From assembly GCF_001677475.2 (NCBI RefSeq), contig NZ_CP015229.1: a DNA stretch of 64,000 bases, one strand, 5' to 3'. Made by a program: the position numbers and the translations under genes. The notes under the pieces were generated by a model. It did not search any database. It saw nothing but the letters and a program-made list of their open reading frames with translations, and was not told the DNA's origin. Source of the stretch: Escherichia coli. Its GTDB lineage: Bacteria; Pseudomonadota; Gammaproteobacteria; Enterobacterales; Enterobacteriaceae. Below, in pieces: positions 29,605 to 51,289 of this stretch. Every line of letters begins with the position of its first letter. Position 1 is the stretch's first letter.

Positions 29605-29695
29605 GCGTGTCGGATGCGGCGTAAACGCCTTATCCGACCTACGGTTCTACCCCTGCGTAGGCCTGATAAGACGCGCCAGCATCGCATCAGGCAAG
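29605..29695. repeat. BIME: two inverted REP elements
   Basis: tgtcggatgcggcgtaaacgccttatccgacctac and gtaggcctgataagacgcgccagcatcgcatcaggc read directly between dedD stop and the cvpA promoter. Confidence 0.85.
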
Positions 29696-30364: not shown

Positions 30365-31655
30365 CGCTTCTCCTCGCGTCAATCACTTCCATGACATGTG
30401 CGACCGTGTGGAAAGAACCACACACCAGCACGGTGTCTTCCGCTTTAGCGTCCGCCATTGCGGCATCCCATGCCTGCGCAACGCTATCAAATGATTTGCC
30501 GTTACCCAAATGCTCAAGCAGTTGTTCTGCCGTGGCACCGCGCGGCCCTTCCAGTGGCGCACAATACCAGTCATCAACCACGCTTTTCAACCAGGCCAGA
30601 GTTCCGGCAATATCTTTATCATGTAGCATACCGATAACCGCCAGCACGCGCCCGTTTTTCGGTAGCGCTTTCATACGCCCGGTGAGATATTCCGCCGCAT
30701 GTGGATTATGCGCGACATCAAAAATAACGCGAGGCGACTCGCTCACAATCTGGAAACGTCCCGGCAAAATTGCGCTGGCAATCCCGTCGCGAATGGCAGT
30801 TTCACTGACCTCCAGCCCGCTGGCACGCAGTGCCGCCAGCGCCGTTGCGGCATTCGGTTGTGGGACAAGCGGCAACGGCAGGTTTTCCAGCGTGCCGTGA
30901 GCATCGCTAAACGCCCAGTCATGATCGGTGACGGAATAGTTCCACTCAACGCCCCGACGTTGTAACAGTGCACCTTTTTCCTGCGCCACATCAGCAATGG
31001 TAGAAGGCATTTCCGGCTCACCGACAATTGCCGGTTTTTCGCTGCGAAAGATGCCTGCTTTCTCGCGACCAATGCTTTCGCGATCTGGCCCCAGCCAGTC
31101 AGTATGATCCAGCGCAATGCTGGTCACCACAGCCACATCAGCATCGACAATATTGGTGGCATCCAGACGACCACCCAGCCCCACTTCCAGAATTACCACA
31201 TCAAGTTGCGCCTGTTTAAACAGCCACAGAGCCGACAACGTGCCGTATTCAAAATAGGTCAGGGAAATATCACCGCGTGCCGATTCAATCTCAGCAAAAG
31301 AGGCGGTGTGAGCCGATTCAATCTCAGCAAAAGAGGCGGTGTGAGCCGATTCCGGCAATTCCTGGCCCTGCACACGAACGCGCTCGGTATAACGCACCAG
31401 ATGAGGCGAACTGTAGACGCCCACTTTGTACCCTGCCACCATCAGAATCGACTCCAGCGTACGGCAGGTGGTGCCTTTGCCATTCGTACCCGCAACGGTA
31501 AACACAAATGGCGCTGGTTTCAGAACGCCAAGACGCGCCGCGACCTGGCTCACGCGCTCAAGGCCGAGATCGATAGTTTTACTGTGCAGGTTTTCCAGAT
31601 AAGAAAGCCACGAAGCCAAAGGCGACGCGGCTTGAGGTGTGCGTTTGATAATCAT
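30354..31655 (-). CDS. folC: Dihydrofolate synthase / folylpolyglutamate synthase, carrying an 11-codon in-frame tandem duplication
   Basis: 433-aa ORF with Mur-ligase P-loop (TVAGTNGKGTT); contains ..SAHTASFAEIESAHTASFAEIES.. from the 33-bp duplication. Confidence 0.92.
   Translation of the reverse strand: MIIKRTPQAASPLASWLSYLENLHSKTIDLGLERVSQVAARLGVLKPAPFVFTVAGTNGKGTTCRTLESILMVAGYKVGVYSSPHLVRYTERVRVQGQELPESAHTASFAEIESAHTASFAEIESARGDISLTYFEYGTLSALWLFKQAQLDVVILEVGLGGRLDATNIVDADVAVVTSIALDHTDWLGPDRESIGREKAGIFRSEKPAIVGEPEMPSTIADVAQEKGALLQRRGVEWNYSVTDHDWAFSDAHGTLENLPLPLVPQPNAATALAALRASGLEVSETAIRDGIASAILPGRFQIVSESPRVIFDVAHNPHAAEYLTGRMKALPKNGRVLAVIGMLHDKDIAGTLAWLKSVVDDWYCAPLEGPRGATAEQLLEHLGNGKSFDSVAQAWDAAMADAKAEDTVLVCGSFHTVAHVMEVIDARRSGGK
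31279..31344. repeat. Perfect 2 x 33-bp tandem duplication inside folC
   Basis: gccgattcaatctcagcaaaagaggcggtgtga at 31279-31311 and again at 31312-31344, followed by an 8-bp partial copy gccgattc at 31345-31352. Confidence 0.95.
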
Positions 31656-31682
31656 GGTATCCGCTGATTCATTACGGGGATA

Positions 31683-31711
31683 ATAGCAAAAGGGCAGAGC
31701 CAGTGGCCCTG
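31683..31711 (-). terminator. Hairpin in accD-folC spacer (possible attenuator)
   Basis: agggcag-agccagtggcc-ctgccct inverted repeat followed on the minus strand by ttttgct. Confidence 0.4.
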
Positions 31712-31724
31712 CCCTTATCAGTTA

Positions 31725-32639
31725 TCAGGCCTCAGGTTCCTGATCCGGTACCGGGGGTACCACTACGCCTTCACGCGGCGCTTCAGGATTCGGCGCTGGC
31801 AGATTCATCAACTTCGCCAGAATGCTCGCCAGTTTCAGGCGCATTTCCGGACGACGGACGATCATGTCGATCGCGCCTTTCTCGATCAGGAATTCACTGC
31901 GCTGGAATCCTGGCGGCAGTTTTTCGCGAACGGTCTGTTCGATAACACGCGGACCGGCAAAGCCGATTAACGCTTTCGGTTCAGCGATGTTGAGATCGCC
32001 CAGCATGGCGAAACTTGCAGAAACACCGCCCATCGTCGGGTCGGTCAGCACGGAGATGTACGGCAAGCCGCGCTCCTGCATTTTTGCCAGTGCCGCAGAG
32101 GTTTTCGCCATCTGCATCAGCGACATCAGTGCTTCCTGCATACGTGCGCCACCAGAGGCGGAGAAGCAGATCAGCGGGCAGTTATCTTCCAGCGCCTGCT
32201 CAACGGCACGCACGAAACGTGCACCCACAACAGACCCCATTGAACCGCCCATAAAGGCGAACTCGAATGCCGCAGCGACAACCGGCATTCCATACAGAGT
32301 GCCTTTCATCACCACCAGCGCATCTTTTTCGCCGGTTTCTTTCTGCGCAGATGCCAGACGGTCTTTATACTTCTTGGAGTCACGAAACTTCAGCACATCT
32401 TTCGGCTCAAGCTCGCTACCCAGCTCCACAAGGCTTCCTTCATCTAACAGGCTATGCAGGCGATTACGCGCTGTCATACGCATGTGATGGTCACACTTCG
32501 GACAGACCTCAAGATTACGTTCCAGCTCAGCGCGGTATAAAACCTGACCGCAGCTATCACACTTAGTCCACACCCCTTCAGGAATGCTCGCCTTGCGGGT
32601 GGGAGTAATGTTGCTTTTAATTCGTTCAATCCAGCTCAT
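31725..32639 (-). CDS. accD: Acetyl-CoA carboxylase carboxyltransferase beta subunit
   Basis: ORF track extends to 32723; the ATG at 32637-32639 gives [10 protein letters not shown] and the Zn-finger CDSCGQ...CPKCDHH; 304 aa. Confidence 0.95.
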
Positions 32640-39030: not shown

Positions 39031-39101
39031 GCCGGAGGCCGCATTGGCGCGTAATGTCGGATGCGACGCTGGCGCGTCTTATCCGACCTACTCCGGCCTA
39101 C
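39031..39101. repeat. REP element(s) downstream of fabB
   Basis: gccggaggccgcattggcgc...gtcggatgcgacgctggcgcgtcttatccgacctac; produces a spurious ORF beginning MSDATLARLIRP. Confidence 0.8.
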
Positions 39102-40420: not shown

Positions 40421-42493
<2,073 letters not shown>

Positions 42494-42506
42494 TCAGCTT
42501 TGGCAT

Positions 42507-42606
<100 letters not shown>

Positions 42607-42613
42607 CAACAAC

Positions 42614-42892
42614 TTACTGCTGTGACGCCTGCTGAAACAGGTTTTCCCACATTTCGGTAACCAGCGCCTGGTCACGCGGCGACAATTCACCGGCGCCAAT
42701 GGCTTTTTCTAGACTCTGGCTAACGGTTGTATGCACCGCCTGGGCGGAGTGGTCATCACCACTTTCCAGTTCTGCGATGGCTAATGTCAGGTGGCCACGC
42801 AAATACCCACTGGCAAACAACTCATCATCACTGGCATGGTCAACCATACCGTCGATTAATGCCAGAATGCGTGATTCAAACTCCGCGATCAT
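42614..42892 (-). CDS. yfcL: Small protein YfcL
   Basis: 92-aa ORF at the 3' end of the aroC-containing operon. Confidence 0.85.
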
Positions 42893-42925
42893 CTTCTTTC
42901 CTCATTGTAAAACGTGGCGCTGGCT

Positions 42926-43474
42926 TTAGTTGAGCGCTTCCGGCCACGGGAACTGTTCCGCCGTAAGTTCCGGCGTGTGATAATAATTTTGTAATGCTTT
43001 AATGAAGCGTGCCGGGCGTTCAGGAATGCCGTTTTCCAGATAATCCATCACCTGCGCATATACCCGCCGTTGAAACACCACGCGATCCGGTTCGAAATCC
43101 CCTTCCAGATTGTCGCAACTGACGTTAAACGGATATCCCGCCGCCACGCAGAACAACCAGTCCAGCGCCTGCGGCTTCACTTCAACATCTTCAAACTGGC
43201 TTTGCGTTTGGGCATCGCGTCCGTCCGGGCAATACCAGTAGCCGAAATCAACCAGTTCACGGCGCGCTTTCCCGGCAATACACCAGTGCGAAATCTCATG
43301 AATTGCGCTGGCATAAAAACCATGAGCAAAGACGATTCGGTTATACGGTACTTCCGCATCAGCAGGAAGATAGATCGGTTCGTCGTCGCCTTTAATCAGA
43401 CGGGTATTAAATTCATCGGCAAAGCAGCTATTAAAAATTTCAATCAACTGCTCATAGTGGTGTGTACTGTTCAT
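42926..43474 (-). CDS. epmC: Elongation factor P hydroxylase
   Basis: 182-aa ORF (former yfcM); HxxxE-like metal-binding region. Confidence 0.87.
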   Translation of the reverse strand: MNSTHHYEQLIEIFNSCFADEFNTRLIKGDDEPIYLPADAEVPYNRIVFAHGFYASAIHEISHWCIAGKARRELVDFGYWYCPDGRDAQTQSQFEDVEVKPQALDWLFCVAAGYPFNVSCDNLEGDFEPDRVVFQRRVYAQVMDYLENGIPERPARFIKALQNYYHTPELTAEQFPWPEALN

Positions 43475-46230: not shown

Positions 46231-47163
46231 TTAATCTTTATAAATCGCGAAATGTTCTCGTGCGGCAATAAGCTGCTCTTTGGTGAGCATAAACACACCA
46301 TCGCCGCCGTTATCAAACTCCAGCCAGGTGAACGGAACATCCGGATATTGTTCCATAAGATGTACCATGCTGTTGCCGACTTCACAAATCAACACGCCAT
46401 CATCAGCAAGGTAATCTGCCGCGTTACCGAGAATGCGACGCGTCAGTTTCAGGCCGTCGGTGCCAGATGCCAGGCCCAGTTCCGGCTCGTGACGGTACTC
46501 ATTTGGCAGGTCGGACATATCTTCCGCATCGACATACGGCGGGTTAGTGACAATCAGGTCGTACTGCACTTTCGGCAAGTCGCGGAACAGATCGGATCGA
46601 ATCGGAATGACGTTATGGATCAAACCGTGTTCTTCGATGTTCTGTTCGGCAACCGCCAGCGCGTCGGGAGAGATATCCACCGCGTCGACTTCCGCTTCCG
46701 GGAAGGCATAAGCGCAGGCAATGGCAATGCAGCCGCTGCCAGTGCACATATCCAGAATATGCTGCGGTTGTTTGCTGATGAGTCCTGCAAATTTATTGTT
46801 GATCAGTTCACCAATCGGCGAGCGCGGAACCAGTACGCGTTCATCGACGAAAAATTCGTGACCGCAGAACCAGGCTTTGTTAGTCAAATAGGCCACCGGA
46901 ATGCGTTCGTTGACGCGGCGGATCACGCGCTCAACAATACGGTGTTTTTCGCTGGAGGTCAGGCGGGCGTTACGCATATCTTCCGGAATATCCAGCGGCA
47001 GATAGAGCGATGGCAATACCAGTTGCACTGCTTCGTCCCACGGGTTGTCTGTGCCGTGACCGTACCAGATATTTGCCGCGCTGAAGCGGCTAACCGACCA
47101 GCGCAACATGTCCTGAATGGTTTGCAGCTCATTTACTGCTTCATCGACGAAAATTTTATCCAC
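46231..47163 (-). CDS. prmB: Ribosomal protein L3 glutamine N5-methyltransferase
   Basis: 310-aa ORF with SAM-binding DMCTGSG and the NPPY motif. Confidence 0.93.
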
Positions 47164-47328
47164 GTATTCCTCCAGGGCATGGTCGCATTAATTTCGGCGG
47201 CTAGTTTGCCATGAAGATGACGATAAATCAGCATTCACGCGGCGATGACGCAGGAAAATTATGTTTTGACCGATCGATTGTGCTGCGAGTCGGGTAAACT
47301 GTAGGAAAATTAAAACAGAGATACATAA

Positions 47329-47880
47329 ATGAAAAAGAAAACAACACTCAGCGAGGAGGATCAGGCACTGTTTCGCCAGTTGATGGCGGGTACTCGCAAA
47401 ATTAAGCAGGACACGATTGTCCATCGTCCACAACGAAAGAAAGTCAGCGAAGTGCCGGTCAAGCGGTTGATTCAGGAGCAGGCGGATGCCAGCCATTATT
47501 TTTCCGATGAGTTTCAGCCGTTATTAAATACCGAAGGTCCGGTGAAATATGTTCGCCCGGATGTGAGTCATTTTGAGGCGAAGAAACTGCGCCGTGGCGA
47601 TTATTCGCCGGAGCTGTTTTTGGATCTGCATGGTCTGACGCAACTTCAGGCCAAACAAGAGCTAGGCGCGTTGATTGCCGCCTGCCGCCGTGAACATGTA
47701 TTTTGCGCCTGTGTGATGCATGGTCACGGGAAGCATATTTTGAAGCAGCAAACGCCGCTGTGGCTGGCGCAACATCCGCATGTCATGGCGTTTCACCAGG
47801 CACCGAAAGAGTATGGTGGCGACGCGGCGTTGCTGGTGTTGATTGAAGTGGAAGAGTGGCTGCCGCCAGAATTGCCCTGA
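47329..47880 (+). CDS. smrB: Smr-domain ribosome-rescue endonuclease
   Basis: 183-aa ORF with C-terminal Smr domain (LDLHGLT...HGHGKHIL). Confidence 0.9.
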
Positions 47881-48100
47881 ATGACAACAACCGGATATAG
47901 AATTTGCAGGTCGGATAAGATGCGCCAGCATTGCATCCGACAAGAAATGCCGGATGCGGCGTGAACACCTTATCCAGCCTACGCAAGACTGAATGACAAC
48001 AACCGGATATGGAATTTGTAGGTCGGATAAGATGCGTCAGCATCGCATCCGACAAAAAGTGCCGGATGCGGCGTAAACGCCATATCCTGCCTGGGCGCTA
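47881..48100. repeat. Tandemly duplicated BIME block (2 x about 112 bp, each with an inverted REP pair)
   Basis: Units starting atgacaacaaccggatat at 47881 and 47993 align end to end with a few substitutions; each contains ggtcggataagatgcg...gcatccgac and gccggatgcggcgt... Confidence 0.85.
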
Positions 48101-48964
48101 CAGCATATTCAATACATACTGGAATCGGCAGGTGGAGTCTATGGGCTGCCTGCTACTGGTATCAACACGTACTAACATATCGTGCAGTTGTCGATCGGTA
48201 ATAGGGTGCTGCGTTGGCGCCACAGTCACTTTAGCGTCATCACATCCTTCAGCAGTAAAGGTAATCAACTGATTTACAAAGCGACAATACGCGCCGCGTT
48301 CATCCATTTTACTGCCATCGCAGAGCTGACCATCTTTCATCAGGTAGGTCGATAAGTTTTGTTCAATCACTGACCCTGTTGATTTCAGATTCAAAACCTT
48401 ACTGTGTTCAACACGGCTGTCACTCCAGGAGATATCATAATTTGTTAATGGCTCACCTGGGCAGGTTGTTGTATAGGTTGTAGGCCCCCTATAATATTCA
48501 ACTCTCGGTTGATAATTATAATATACAGTATCAGTACTGTTCGCCGTCATCCCCACCATCCACGGACACGTCTCTGCCGAACCGTTGACCTCTATGGTCA
48601 TGACAACATCGGAGCATCTCCAGTTGAAATTGGGATCAATCTCTTTAACACCCGGACAATGGGAATCTTGTGTATAATCGCTCGAGCGGACTGTGATTTT
48701 GGGGGCTGGAATATTTCCCGGCCCGGTCCATGAATGATTAGGAAGATCCCCATACTTGACGCCATGGTCGGTATTTTGATAGTACACCCCATGATAAACC
48801 CCATTGGTAGTGAGTAAATCAAGGTAGAATTGAAGCGTTGCATTTCCGGCAATCGTACCATAGTAGACTGTCACATTATTATAGACTGCCCCCAGTTTCG
48901 CCTGAGCTCCCTGGCTAAAGAACAGCACCAGCATGGCGCAAAGCAGTAATCGTATTTTTTTCAT
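48098..48964 (-). CDS. yfcO: Fimbrial-operon-associated exported protein (DUF2544)
   Basis: ORF with signal peptide MKKIRLLLCAMLVLFFSQGAQA; start chosen at 48962-48964 (ORF track allows 48979). Confidence 0.78.
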   Translation of the reverse strand: MKKIRLLLCAMLVLFFSQGAQAKLGAVYNNVTVYYGTIAGNATLQFYLDLLTTNGVYHGVYYQNTDHGVKYGDLPNHSWTGPGNIPAPKITVRSSDYTQDSHCPGVKEIDPNFNWRCSDVVMTIEVNGSAETCPWMVGMTANSTDTVYYNYQPRVEYYRGPTTYTTTCPGEPLTNYDISWSDSRVEHSKVLNLKSTGSVIEQNLSTYLMKDGQLCDGSKMDERGAYCRFVNQLITFTAEGCDDAKVTVAPTQHPITDRQLHDMLVRVDTSSRQPIDSTCRFQYVLNML

Positions 48965-48965
48965 C

Positions 48966-49505
48966 TTATATATACTCAAAGGTTGCCGTCAGGTTGGCGG
49001 TAAAATCACCGAGCGTGACATCGCGACCGCTTTTCGCCTGCAGCCAGGCCCTGAAATGAATATCATTACTTCCATCGCTGAGCGTAAATTTCGCCCCTGT
49101 CGGGTTGTTAATTGCCACCCGCACACCATCGATCGTTTCCATCCCAATTCCGACGCCCTGAGCGGTTGAAGTGGTATCCAGCGCGAGGAAACCCGGCTGT
49201 TCGCTGTCTTCCGTACCGGTAAGGGTCACCTGCACCTGGTAACTCGCCGGCCCCTTGCAATCTTTTAGCTTAAACACCACCGGAACGTGCGGGGATTCCC
49301 CTGCGACCATAAGATCCTGACGACTGATGGCAGGAAAATGCACTTCTGCCAGATTTCCGCCATCAACCACCAGCGTGCAGGAACGGCTTAATAAGTTGCC
49401 TGAAAAATGCAGGTTGTTATCCACGGCCAGGGCACAAGTGCCACCGGTCAACAGCAGCCCCGCTAACAGCGCGTAGCCGAACGAATAAATGCGTCCTGTC
49501 TTCAT
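48966..49505 (-). CDS. yfcP: Fimbrial-like subunit
   Basis: 179-aa ORF with signal peptide and fimbrial subunit Cys pair. Confidence 0.85.
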   Translation of the reverse strand: MKTGRIYSFGYALLAGLLLTGGTCALAVDNNLHFSGNLLSRSCTLVVDGGNLAEVHFPAISRQDLMVAGESPHVPVVFKLKDCKGPASYQVQVTLTGTEDSEQPGFLALDTTSTAQGVGIGMETIDGVRVAINNPTGAKFTLSDGSNDIHFRAWLQAKSGRDVTLGDFTANLTATFEYI

Positions 49506-49990
49506 TGATAATCCACCCGTAATGTTGCATAGGCCGAAAACGTGGTATCACTCAACACCGCATCAGCCGATTTCACCGGCACAGCTTCCAGCTTCGGCTT
49601 TTGCGTAAAATCGGTGGCGTTAATGGCAAGCGGCGTATTCAGCTTAAAACGCTGACCATCGTGCCGAAGCTCAATACCAAAACCGGGAACATCTGTTTCG
49701 ATAGCCGAGTCGTTATACGTGGTCTGCGTACCCGTCCATGTGAGCGTCATAATCCAGTCGGGCTCGCGTACTGCGGAGTCACAGCTCAGGTCATAGTTCA
49801 CTTCCCTGCGACCATAATCCCCGTTGATGCTGTCGATGATAAGATCGCGAAATTCCACTTCAATGGTCTTTCCCTCGCTAATGGTACAGGCTGGAGGTGA
49901 CACCAGCGTACCGTGAAAGGTGATGTCTTCATTTGCTGCCAGAGCCACGCCGCCACAGATGCAGAGTAAAAGTAATGAGAGTTTTTTCAC
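49502..49990 (-). CDS. yfcQ: Fimbrial-like subunit
   Basis: 162-aa ORF with signal peptide; 4-bp overlap with yfcP. Confidence 0.85.
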   Translation of the reverse strand: MKKLSLLLLCICGGVALAANEDITFHGTLVSPPACTISEGKTIEVEFRDLIIDSINGDYGRREVNYDLSCDSAVREPDWIMTLTWTGTQTTYNDSAIETDVPGFGIELRHDGQRFKLNTPLAINATDFTQKPKLEAVPVKSADAVLSDTTFSAYATLRVDYQ

Positions 49991-50502
49991 TGGTAATCCA
50001 CCACCATCGTCATACTGGCGTTAAATTCCGCTGGCGTAAGCTGCACTCCGCTCTGTTTTACCGGCACCGCTTTGAGACTGGGCAACTGGTTAACATTGAA
50101 ATCAGACCAGTTACCTTCACCCACTTTAAACAGGGTGTTATCGGCACCGTTTTCAATGCGGATACCCAGGCCTGAAATTTGCGTCGCAATGACCGTTTCC
50201 CCGTTAATCACGGTGGTGGAGCCTTTAAGCTGCATCCGCAGATCATCAACACCTGATGCCTTGTTACCGCAGTTCAGGGTATAAAGCGCCCCCGTCGTAC
50301 GGTAATTTGTGCCATTGATTTTGCTAATGTACACATTGCCAAATTCAACATTGCTCCCCTTCACGGAACAGGGCGGTGGCCCATCCACCAGAACGCGCAA
50401 CGTTAATAACACCGGTTTACTTTCTCCCGCGACGGCCATGTTGCCCGTCAGCCAGCCGCTCAGGAGAAAAATGCCCGTTCCCACCAGAAACGTGTATTTC
50501 AT
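49987..50502 (-). CDS. yfcR: Fimbrial-like subunit
   Basis: 171-aa ORF with signal peptide; 4-bp overlap with yfcQ. Confidence 0.85.
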   Translation of the reverse strand: MKYTFLVGTGIFLLSGWLTGNMAVAGESKPVLLTLRVLVDGPPPCSVKGSNVEFGNVYISKINGTNYRTTGALYTLNCGNKASGVDDLRMQLKGSTTVINGETVIATQISGLGIRIENGADNTLFKVGEGNWSDFNVNQLPSLKAVPVKQSGVQLTPAEFNASMTMVVDYQ

Positions 50503-50517
50503 AAGACTCTCCCGGCA

Positions 50518-51270
50518 TCAGCCTTTGCGGCTCTGCTCTGCATCCACCTGGCAACTATTGCCGTTGCATTTAAAGATCAGCGAAAGTCGCGCGCCGTAGT
50601 CGTTGACGTAAGTCAGCACCGGCACACTGTCCATCTTCACATTCAGCGGTGCGGATGTTTTCGGCGGCATTACCAGCGGCGTAAATCCGGCTGCCGGATT
50701 ACCATTTTTCTGGGTACTGGCGTTGCTGAGGATCACGTAATACGGCGTTGGGTTATTAACGGTGAAGGCCTGCCCATTGCGGGTTAAAGTCACCTTGTGC
50801 TGCCACGGATCTCTCATGTTGATTTCTGCCAGCGCCTTCGGTCGCCAGAACAGTTTGATACGCGTTTGCAGAGCAATTTGCAGGGTGTTCGGTTTGTTCG
50901 ATTTTGGCGGGATTTCACGCACGTTAAAGTAGAACATGCTCTCACGATCGGCAGGTAACTTGCTGATATCCGGCATTCCCTGGACTTTTACCTGACCATT
51001 CATCATCGCATCAATGCGCTGTACCGGCGGCAGAACCGTCAATGGCGAACTGATTTTGTTGCCCTTTTCGTCTTCTATCCAGCTTTGCGCCAGATATGGC
51101 AGCTTAGGGTCGTTATTGCGCAACGTGACGCTGATGGATTTGTCACTTTCTTTGAAGATCAGGCGGGTGCGGTCGGGCGTTACCGATGCGTGGGTTGTAA
51201 AACTGGCGGCGGTCACCAGCAGCGCCAGCGCCGGGGCAACCATTTTTGCGGTATTAGTCTGTGTATACAT
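50518..51270 (-). CDS. yfcS: Periplasmic fimbrial chaperone (PapD-like)
   Basis: 250-aa ORF with signal peptide and PapD-family core. Confidence 0.9.
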   Translation of the reverse strand: MYTQTNTAKMVAPALALLVTAASFTTHASVTPDRTRLIFKESDKSISVTLRNNDPKLPYLAQSWIEDEKGNKISSPLTVLPPVQRIDAMMNGQVKVQGMPDISKLPADRESMFYFNVREIPPKSNKPNTLQIALQTRIKLFWRPKALAEINMRDPWQHKVTLTRNGQAFTVNNPTPYYVILSNASTQKNGNPAAGFTPLVMPPKTSAPLNVKMDSVPVLTYVNDYGARLSLIFKCNGNSCQVDAEQSRKG

Positions 51271-51289
51271 GGATCATTCCTTAATCACG

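What the first reader, a model, noticed from the sequence alone, without database searches (positions are those of the whole stretch)
47881..48100. Tandem duplication of a complete BIME block between smrB and yfcO
Two units of about 112 bp, each starting atgacaacaaccggatat and each containing an inverted REP pair, follow one another with only a few substitutions. REP/BIME arrays are known recombination hot-spots and bind DNA gyrase and IHF, and copy number at a given locus varies between strains. The array produces two spurious overlapping ORFs beginning MSDAML(A/T)HLIRP.
Basis: partly seen in the sequence, partly recalled or inferred. Interest (0 to 1): 0.35.

Follow-up and report, generated by a model that had tools for sequence, protein, structure and literature searches.

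The report
Two-unit REP/BIME array after smrB
The gap between the converging genes smrB and yfcO holds an ordinary E. coli repeated-palindrome (REP/BIME) cluster whose 112-base unit has been duplicated in tandem; the copy number differs between related strains, as is already well known for this kind of repeat.

Summary
Window 47877-48092 is a 112-bp tandem repeat of 1.9 copies, 90% identical with no indels. Each unit is a spacer, a Z-type REP, a 5-nt linker and an inverted Y-type REP. It fills the 217-bp gap between smrB (+) and a yfcO-like adhesin gene (-).

This is the textbook layout of BIME-2 or atypical BIME arrays. K-12 REP325 has it with period 100, and an E. coli ybhC-ybhJ array has it with period 92. 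Rfam places both REP doublets just above the naRNA4 cut-off, but that model also hits unrelated BIMEs.

The 22-35-nt spacer is unique to this locus: it occurs at one locus among 100,044 species-representative genomes. The array therefore grew by local duplication, not by a second insertion.

Seven unit-1/unit-2 differences are shared by three sublineages, so the duplication is old. Related strains carry one unit, and mosaic units point to unequal crossover.

The host is E. coli (97.8% to K-12) with a rare, highly divergent yfc operon. None of 5,426 complete E. coli genomes has this array, and K-12 has a plain hairpin here. No IHF site is present.

The likely role, which is inferred, is a two-way 3'-end hairpin block or terminator. 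The ORFs are spurious. This is an ordinary finding of low interest.

The parts
47329..47880 (+). smrB (183 aa, Smr domain). Its stop codon TGA lies at 47878-47880, inside the first four bases (CTGA) of repeat unit 1.
47877..47988 (.). Repeat unit 1 (112 bp): CTGA, a 25-nt spacer, a Z REP, a 5-nt linker, a Y iREP, then GCAAGA.
47881..47905 (+). Unit 1 spacer ATGACAACAACCGGATATAGAATTT. It is unique to this locus. The trailing AATTT is the usual lead-in to Z REPs.
47906..47942 (+). Z-type REP of unit 1 (37 nt). Its GTAG has degenerated to GCAG. In the window lineage the T at 47932 breaks one stem pair.
47943..47947 (.). Short linker AGAAA between the Z and Y REPs of unit 1.
47948..47982 (-). Y-type REP of unit 1 (35 nt), read as GTAGGCTGGATAAGG... 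on the minus strand with an intact GTAG. Its end plus flank is 22/23 identical to the yafJ-gmhA BIME boundary.
47983..48017 (.). 35-nt long linker between the Y REP of unit 1 and the Z REP of unit 2. It sits where REP325 has its 17-nt spacer.
47989..48100 (.). Repeat unit 2 (112-bp register; similarity to unit 1 is detectable up to 48092).
48018..48054 (+). Z-type REP of unit 2 (37 nt) with an intact GTAG.
48055..48059 (.). Short linker AAAAG of unit 2.
48060..48094 (-). Y-type REP of unit 2 (35 nt). Its GTAG has degenerated (CCAG on the minus strand). The hairpin starts about 6 nt after the yfcO stop codon.
47909..47979 (-). Rfam naRNA4 (RF02564) match to the unit 1 doublet: 62.4 bits against a gathering score of 59.5, model positions 1-77.
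48021..48091 (-). Rfam naRNA4 (RF02564) match to the unit 2 doublet: 66.5 bits against a gathering score of 59.5, model positions 1-77.
48098..48964 (-). yfcO-like fimbrial adhesin gene (288 aa from MKKIRLLL; DUF2544). Its stop codon is at 48098-48100. It is the last gene of a divergent yfc chaperone-usher operon.
47662..47943 (-). Spurious 93-aa ORF. It starts at TTG inside the Z REP of unit 1 and runs antisense through the 3' end of smrB.
47783..48055 (-). Spurious 90-aa ORF. It starts at TTG inside the Z REP of unit 2 and crosses unit 1 into smrB on the antisense strand.

Best explanation
This is a two-unit array of a bacterial interspersed mosaic element (BIME) of the BIME-2/atypical class. 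Four REP hairpins alternate in orientation (Z> <Y Z> <Y). Each Z-Y pair is joined by a 5-nt linker, and the two pairs are separated by a 35-nt spacer. The array fills the whole gap between the converging genes smrB and a yfcO-like adhesin gene. The host is an E. coli lineage with a rare, very divergent allele of the yfc fimbrial operon.

Shown: the array arose by local tandem duplication of a 112-bp block (spacer plus REP doublet), not by a second insertion. The duplication predates the split of at least three sublineages. Unit number and unit sequence have since been reshuffled, giving 1-unit alleles and mosaic units.

Inferred: the reshuffling occurred by unequal crossover or gene conversion between units, possibly helped by the REP-associated transposase. 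On either transcript the hairpins probably act as a 3'-UTR element that blocks 3'-5' exonucleases and partly terminates transcription. If so, they take the place of the plain terminator hairpin that K-12 has at this position.
For: The repeat is real.

The anatomy is two hairpins per unit, with covariance-model matches over the full naRNA4 model for both doublets. Both strands fold strongly, with z-scores of -4.5 and -5.1.

Known E. coli arrays have the same layout. REP325 has period 100, 5.8 copies and 96% matches. The ybhC-ybhJ array has period 92 and 2.1 copies, with a nearly identical Z REP and a 5-nt short linker.

The literature states that BIME-2 and atypical BIMEs occur as tandem copies, that copies at one locus are well conserved, that copy number varies between strains, and that linkers vary between loci (PMC3333891).

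The spacer is unique. It occurs twice in the window and at a single locus among 100,044 species-representative genomes. The only metagenome hits are at this same locus.

The duplication is old. Seven unit-1/unit-2 differences are shared by the window, L017 and E69, whereas orthologous units differ by only 0-3.

Copy number varies: ten contigs have 2 units and eight have an identical 1-unit allele. A second 1-unit allele has a different unit-1/unit-2 junction, and one contig begins in a hybrid unit.

The setting is a convergent gene pair, with no T-run terminator found in the gap. K-12 has a plain GC hairpin there.

For function, REP325 acts as a partly Rho-dependent terminator and as a stabiliser of the upstream mRNA. 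REPs between convergent genes go with higher expression of both genes (bioRxiv 10.64898/2026.03.23.713779).
Against: No expression data exist for this strain, so the 3'-UTR role is inference only. The same preprint found no genome-wide lengthening of mRNA half-life by terminal REPs.

The Z REP is a variant with a TCGGAT...GATGCG stem, and the 35-nt spacer is not one of the canonical BIME linkers I could verify. Assignment to BIME-2 proper rather than 'atypical BIME' is therefore open.

The last 8-9 nt of unit 1 (ACGCAAGA) do not match the end of unit 2, so the exact breakpoints of the duplication are unresolved.

Whether the 1-unit alleles are secondary losses or relics of the ancestral state cannot be settled. 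The pattern at the 7 diagnostic sites would arise by chance with p of about 0.34 (my calculation).

Only 2 of the 4 REPs keep an intact GTAG.
Confidence: 0.85

Rival explanations
1. The two doublets are genes for naRNA4-like small RNAs that bind the nucleoid protein HU and help condense the chromosome, as was proposed for REP325.
For: Both doublets reach Rfam's gathering score for naRNA4 over the whole model on the minus strand, at 66.5 and 62.4 bits against 59.5. They are the only such hits in the 64-kb window. Qian et al. 2015 reported that REP325 units are transcribed and bind HU (PMC4550694).
Against: The model recognises any Y+Z doublet. True REP325 units score 95-111 bits, unrelated BIMEs score 69-80, and the window units are marginal. 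The short linker here is 6 nt shorter than in the model. A 2026 study found that deleting or overexpressing REP325 does not change nucleoid volume or contacts, and it reassigns REP325 to local 3'-UTR regulation.
Confidence: 0.05
2. The two units are two independent insertions of a mobile REP doublet (REPIN), moved by the REP-associated transposase into the same gap, and not a local duplication.
For: The gap is a repeated target for REPs. Other E. coli alleles carry different BIMEs here (L005, L006, L009, L011). Each doublet can fold into one long hairpin like a REPIN. The 7-10% difference between the units is large.
Against: The non-REP spacer, 25 nt plus the preceding CTGA, is repeated along with the doublet with a single mismatch. 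That spacer occurs nowhere else in 100,044 species-representative genomes. Independent insertions would not carry the same unique flank.
Confidence: 0.05
3. The repeat encodes protein: either the 27-aa ORFs that start at the ATG right after the smrB stop codon (MTTTGY...), or the 90-93-aa minus-strand ORFs (MSDAML...).
For: The ORFs exist in both units. The TGAATG stop-start arrangement could in principle couple translation to smrB.
Against: None of them matches a Pfam family. The 1-bp deletion in the single-unit alleles shifts the frame of the 27-aa ORF. The long ORFs begin at TTG inside a REP stem and run antisense through smrB. Their sequence simply follows the REP consensus.
Confidence: 0.02
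4. The duplication is an assembly artefact.
For: Short-read contigs sometimes break inside the array (L035-L037; L041).
Against: The same 217-bp two-unit gap is present in ten independent assemblies, including a complete chromosome (CP089930.1). These carry five sequence variants and stable unit-specific differences.
Confidence: 0.01

Closest known systems
REP325 of E. coli K-12 (BIME-2 array between yjdM and yjdN; source of naRNA1-6, Rfam RF02564)
   Same: It is a head-to-tail array of units, each a Y REP and a Z REP in opposite orientation joined by a short linker, with units separated by a constant spacer that begins AAATTCC. It lies at the 3' end of a gene. Both arrays match the same Rfam model over its full length.
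   Different: REP325 has 5.8 copies of 100 bp at 96% identity, a 17-nt spacer, an 11-13-nt short linker and a CCTGAT-type Z2 stem. The window array has 1.9 copies of 112 bp at 90%, a 35-nt locus-specific spacer, a 5-nt short linker and a TCGGAT/GATGCG Z variant. Its Rfam scores are 62-66 bits against 95-111. REP325 lies between tandem genes; this array lies between convergent genes.
BIME array between ybhC and ybhJ in E. coli 1919D3 (NZ_CP046006.1, L038)
   Same: It has a nearly identical Z REP (GTAGGTCGGATAAGATGCGCCAGCATCGCATCCGACA, one base different from the window's unit 2 copy), a 5-nt short linker, a Y REP, tandem repetition (period 92, 2.1 copies) and a convergent gene pair.
   Different: Its long linker is 15 nt (GGTTCGATGCGATTT) against 35 nt here. 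Its copies are 99% identical against 90% here. It is at a different locus.
BIME-1 / RIP / RIB elements (Y - L - Z1 with an IHF site)
   Same: It is an inverted pair of Y and Z REPs in an intergenic 3' region. BIME-1-like elements occupy this very gap in other E. coli alleles (L005, L011).
   Different: BIME-1 is single-copy, and its GTAG ends face each other across a ~34-nt L motif that carries an IHF site. Here no IHF consensus is present within 1 mismatch, while the L011 L motif matches. This element is also tandemly repeated.
REPINs (REP doublets forming hairpins, mobilised by RAYT transposases)
   Same: Each doublet can fold as one long hairpin with Z paired to Y.
   Different: No RAYT gene was seen or sought in the window, and no evidence of mobility exists. 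The unit that was copied includes unique non-REP sequence.

Membership tests
REP / palindromic unit (E. coli Y and Z types) | An extragenic imperfect palindrome of 30-40 nt able to form a stem-loop with an internal mismatch | tested here: met
   There are four elements of 35-37 nt, all within the 217-bp intergenic gap. The covariance-model alignment shows both stems in each doublet. BLAST to the Y and Z consensus taken from REP325 gives 91-94%.
REP / palindromic unit (E. coli Y and Z types) | A conserved GTAG tetranucleotide 5' of the foot of the hairpin | tested here: inconclusive
   GTAG is intact in the Z REP of unit 2 (48018-48021) and in the Y REP of unit 1 (CTAC at 47979-47982 on the + strand). 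It has degenerated in the Z REP of unit 1 (GCAG) and the Y REP of unit 2 (CCAG on the minus strand). The feature is taken from PMC3333891.
BIME | [quoted passage not shown] | tested here: met
   Z (+) and Y (-) are separated by 5 nt in each unit.
BIME-2 / atypical BIME | Occurs as multiple tandem copies that are well conserved within a locus, with copy number variable between strains | tested here: met
   There are 1.9 copies at 90% identity. Related strains carry 2 units or 1 unit. The definition is from PMC3333891.
BIME-2 / atypical BIME | Made of Y and Z2 REPs with the canonical S linker and s, l or r flanking motifs | tested here: inconclusive
   The Y REP is canonical. The Z REP is a variant with three compensated stem changes relative to the REP325 Z2, but the same variant occurs in the ybhC-ybhJ array. 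The 35-nt spacer is locus-specific. I had no held consensus for the s, l and r motifs. 'Atypical BIME' is the safer label.
BIME-2 / atypical BIME | Binding and cleavage by DNA gyrase | not testable with these tools
   This is known for BIME-2 from the literature (Espeli and Boccard 1997, listed). It needs an experiment.
BIME-1 (RIP/RIB) | A single Y-L-Z1 element whose L linker carries an IHF binding site | tested here: not met
   No WATCAANNNNTTR match within 1 mismatch on either strand of 47861-48120, while the L motif of the L011 allele matches. The element is also tandemly repeated.
naRNA4 (Rfam RF02564) | A score at or above the family's gathering threshold over the full model | tested here: met
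   The scores are 66.5 and 62.4 bits against 59.5, over model positions 1-77 on the minus strand. The model also accepts unrelated BIMEs at 69-80 bits.
naRNA4 (Rfam RF02564) | Expressed as a discrete RNA that binds HU | not testable with these tools
   No expression data exist for this strain. The function itself is disputed.
REPIN / RAYT system | A REP doublet that folds into a long hairpin | tested here: met
   In the minimum-free-energy folds, Z pairs with Y in unit 1 on both strands. This is a prediction only.
REPIN / RAYT system | A cognate RAYT (tnpA-REP) gene in the genome and evidence of mobility | not tested
   The E. coli RAYT locus lies outside this window.

The most novel reading that the evidence does not exclude
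The number of units (1, 2, perhaps 3) at this gap could act as a heritable dial. It would set how much smrB (ribosome-rescue nuclease) and yfcO (fimbrial tip adhesin) mRNA survives, or how far the two converging transcriptions run into each other. If so, the old two-unit state would be kept by selection and would not be neutral. A weaker variant is that the doublets are released as naRNA4-like RNAs that bind HU.
Probability: 0.1. Interest if true: 0.35.

Novelty: new member of a known kind. Interest (0 to 1): 0.15.

Why it matters
It matters little beyond annotation. It is a clean example of how BIME arrays grow by copying a REP doublet together with its local flank, and of how they shrink or become mosaic through exchange between units.

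It also shows that the smrB-yfcO gap is highly polymorphic in E. coli. At least seven unrelated versions exist, and the six allele types surveyed in complete genomes account for only about 2,170 of the 5,426. Each version travels with a different allele of the hypervariable yfc fimbrial operon.

There are three practical points:
- Gene callers should not report the REP-derived ORFs.
- Rfam's naRNA4 hits should be read as 'generic BIME doublet', not as an orthologue of REP325.
- Short-read assemblies can break inside the array.

Tried and rejected
1. IHF binding. No consensus site is present in the array, while a BIME-1 control matches, so a BIME-1/RIP identity is rejected.

2. Coding potential. 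Pfam finds nothing for the REP-born ORFs, and the small ORF is frameshifted in the 1-unit alleles.

3. Selective constraint on unit 2. Unit 2 is identical in three sublineages that differ by 3-4% overall. Local divergence within 400-500 nt of the gap is only about 1%, so the identity is expected and I dropped the idea.

4. A non-E. coli origin. The first megablast gave only 91-93% on smrB, which suggested another species. The window is 97.8% identical to K-12 over 47.9 kb, so the low value is local to the smrB/yfc region.

5. K-12 REP annotation. The held copy of NC_000913.3 lists no REP features in the regions fetched, so it could not be used for typing.

6. Naming the source assemblies from the literature. 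There were no hits for the accession numbers.

7. A full census of alleles of this gap. Six allele-specific searches account for only about 2,170 of 5,426 complete genomes, so the census is incomplete.

8. Exact breakpoints of the duplication. The last 8-9 nt of unit 1 do not align with unit 2. They resemble the boundary of another BIME at 22/23 positions, so gene conversion may have overwritten the junction. This is unresolved.

9. REPs close to stop codons. I could not retrieve the paper by Liang, Rudd and Deutscher (2015) on this. The point rests on my own knowledge.

Full report
**Observation.**
The sequence at 47877-48092 is a head-to-tail repeat with period 112, 1.9 copies, 90% matches and no indels, TRF score 362. 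The repeat finder gives the same two copies, 47877-47980 and 47989-48092. The repeat actually begins four bases earlier, at CTGA. Those four bases contain the smrB stop codon (47878-47880). Both start at TTG inside a REP.

**Flanking genes.**
The + strand ORF 47329-47880 has an Smr domain. Its protein is identical to an SmrB sequence recorded in 25,751 blocks of the assembly collection. The minus-strand ORF ending at 48098 is a DUF2544 protein of the YfcO/StfH adhesin family. It is the last gene of a chaperone-usher operon. The two genes converge, and the repeat fills the whole 217-bp gap between them.

**Anatomy.**
Read on the + strand, each unit has four parts:
- a spacer, which is 25 nt after the smrB stop codon in unit 1 and 35 nt between the units;
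- a 37-nt Z-type REP (47906-47942 and 48018-48054);
- a 5-nt linker;
- a 35-nt Y-type REP in the opposite orientation (47948-47982 and 48060-48094).

The conserved GTAG is intact in the Z REP of unit 2 and the Y REP of unit 1, and has decayed in the other two. Both strands fold far better than shuffled sequence, with z-scores of -4.5 and -5.1. A doublet can fold either as two hairpins or as one long Z:Y hairpin.

Rfam places both doublets, on the minus strand, just above the gathering score of naRNA4. The scores are 66.5 and 62.4 bits against 59.5, over the full model. These are the only such hits in the window.

**Comparison with known arrays.**
naRNA4 is one unit of REP325 of E. coli K-12. 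REP325 has six 77-bp Y-linker-Z2 units separated by identical spacers (PMC4550694). In the K-12 sequence REP325 has period 100, 5.8 copies and 96% matches. Its 17-nt spacer begins AAATTCC, as the window's spacer does on the minus strand.

An array between ybhC and ybhJ in E. coli 1919D3 has a nearly identical Z REP and a 5-nt short linker. Its long linker is 15 nt, with period 92 and 2.1 copies.

Ton-Hoang et al. state four relevant points (PMC3333891):
- BIME-2 and atypical BIMEs occur as tandem copies.
- Copies at one locus are well conserved.
- Their number varies between strains.
- Linkers vary between loci.

The window element fits this description exactly.

As a control, the Rfam model scores true REP325 units at 95-111 bits and unrelated BIMEs at 69-80 bits. 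The Rfam hit therefore means 'generic Y+Z doublet', not orthology to REP325.

No IHF consensus is present within 1 mismatch anywhere in the array, whereas the L motif of a BIME-1 in another allele matches. The element is therefore not a BIME-1/RIP.

**Local duplication or second insertion.**
The spacer is not part of any dispersed family. A degenerate pattern for it matched one locus among 100,044 species-representative genomes. That locus is the same smrB-yfcO gap in 'E. coli strain E69', CP089930.1, with two matches. In the metagenome collection the pattern matched three contigs, all at this same gap. Because unique flanking sequence was copied together with the doublet, the array grew by local tandem duplication.

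**Age and dynamics.**
Contigs that encode exactly the same YfcO or YfcP protein, or close variants, fall into four sublineages. They are 3-4% apart over 6-9 kb but only about 1% apart within 500 nt of the gap.

Three sublineages have two units: the window group, L017 and E69. Unit 2 is identical in all three, and unit 1 differs by 1-3 bases. Seven unit-1/unit-2 differences are shared by all. The duplication therefore predates their split. The window's unit 1 has since gained three more changes, one of which breaks a stem pair.

The fourth sublineage (L020) has a single unit in eight independent contigs with identical sequence. That unit is unit-1-like at sites 27-67 and unit-2-like from site 83 onward.

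A metagenome contig (L042) has another single unit. It shares three private changes with L020 but stays unit-1-like up to site 96.

Contig L041 begins inside a hybrid unit that is unit-2-like at sites 64-83 and unit-1-like at its end. A normal unit 2 follows it.

These mosaics are what unequal crossover or gene conversion between units would produce. L041 could be a three-unit allele, but the contig is truncated. Whether the one-unit alleles are losses or relics cannot be settled from seven sites. Loss is simpler, because L020 nests among the two-unit lineages.

**Host and locus.**
The window is E. coli. It is 97.8% identical to K-12 over positions 1-47880, with many 1-kb bins at 98-99.9%. No complete RefSeq genome is closer than 97.8% over 20000-44000.

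The yfc operon is only 73-82% identical to K-12, and YfcO is 42% identical in protein. The last kilobase before the gap, which holds smrB, drops to 91%.

K-12 has a 70-bp REP-free gap with a plain GC hairpin. None of the 5,426 complete genomes has the window's array.

The gap is highly polymorphic. Counts of complete genomes carrying each other allele type are:

| Allele type | Content of the gap | Complete genomes |
|---|---|---|
| K-12 type | plain hairpin, no REP | 1,118 |
| L004 type | REP-free | 168 |
| L009 type | Y REP plus a partial Z REP | 823 |
| L011 type | BIME-1 | 31 |
| L005 type | BIME-1 with an extra L-Z1 | 18 |
| L006 type | not characterised | 15 |

More than half of the genomes carry alleles I did not sample.

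**Function (inferred).**
No T-run terminator is predicted in the gap. REP325 has recently been shown to act as a partly Rho-dependent terminator and as a stabiliser of the upstream mRNA, with no measurable effect on the nucleoid. In the same study, REPs between convergent genes went with higher expression of both genes, although genome-wide mRNA half-lives were not longer (bioRxiv 10.64898/2026.03.23.713779).

The most likely role here is therefore a two-way 3'-UTR hairpin block or terminator for smrB and yfcO. From my own knowledge (Liang, Rudd and Deutscher 2015, not retrieved), REPs within about 15 nt of a stop codon can lower translation. The Y hairpin of unit 2 starts about 6 nt after the yfcO stop codon, so this could apply to yfcO. 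Gyrase binding, HU binding and processing by the REP-associated transposase cannot be tested here.

**ORFs.**
The REP-born ORFs have no Pfam family. The long ones run antisense to smrB. The 27-aa ORF that follows the smrB stop codon is frameshifted in the one-unit alleles. They are spurious.

**Verdict.**
- the element is not an IHF-type BIME;
- it is not a general feature of E. coli;
- 'yfcO' here is a very divergent allele.

It is a new instance of a well-known kind of repeat, and its behaviour (tandem copies, strain-to-strain copy-number change) is already described. Interest is low.

Noticed in passing
window 48098-54565 (minus strand): The yfc chaperone-usher fimbrial operon is a very divergent allele. 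It is 73-82% identical in DNA to K-12, and YfcO is 42% identical in protein. The usher ORF is intact (51290-53938, 882 aa), whereas K-12 yfcU is a pseudogene.
   Followed up: partly
window 47001-47880: The last kilobase before the gap, containing smrB, is only 91% identical to K-12 against 97.8% for the window as a whole. The SmrB protein is nevertheless identical to a very common E. coli sequence. This looks like old allelic divergence hitch-hiking next to the fimbrial operon.
   Followed up: partly
smrB-yfcO gap in other E. coli (L001-L012): There are at least seven unrelated versions of this gap in E. coli. Three are REP-free with different hairpins (including L002, seen but not counted). 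Three others carry REPs of different kinds, and the L006 type was not characterised. One pair (L011 against L005) differs by an extra L-Z1 block. The six allele types surveyed in complete genomes cover only about 2,170 of the 5,426.
   Followed up: partly
window 29611-29693, 42514-42591, 39055-39088: The window holds other REP elements: two Y+Z pairs and one lone Z REP. None is tandemly repeated and none reaches the naRNA4 gathering score.
   Followed up: partly
window 47967-47989 and L039 1571-1593: The end of the unit 1 Y REP plus its flank (ccttatccagcctacgcaagact) is 22/23 identical to the Y REP end and flank of the yafJ-gmhA BIME of E. coli E2865. This suggests a shared BIME boundary motif, or gene conversion that overwrote the duplication junction.
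   Followed up: no
L041 1-110; L035-L037 ends: Short-read contigs end inside the array. L041 starts in a hybrid unit-2/unit-1 unit that may mark a three-unit allele. L035-L037 stop 72 nt after the yfcO stop codon.
   Followed up: no
window 20000-44000; L021 (CP089930.1): No complete RefSeq E. coli genome is closer than 97.8% to this stretch. The only species-representative genome with the array is titled E. coli strain E69 but stands as its own species representative in the genome collection. The window may come from a lineage at the edge of E. coli.
   Followed up: no
window 31001-32000, 41001-43000, 57236-58235: Other 1-kb bins are unusually divergent from K-12, at 92.9%, 92.5-93.7% and 88.8%. 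The neighbouring bins are at 97-99.9%.
   Followed up: no
L040 1250-1330 (K-12, phnE-phnD gap): A further BIME doublet in K-12 reaches the naRNA4 gathering score at 69.1 bits. This shows that the Rfam family collects generic BIME doublets.
   Followed up: no
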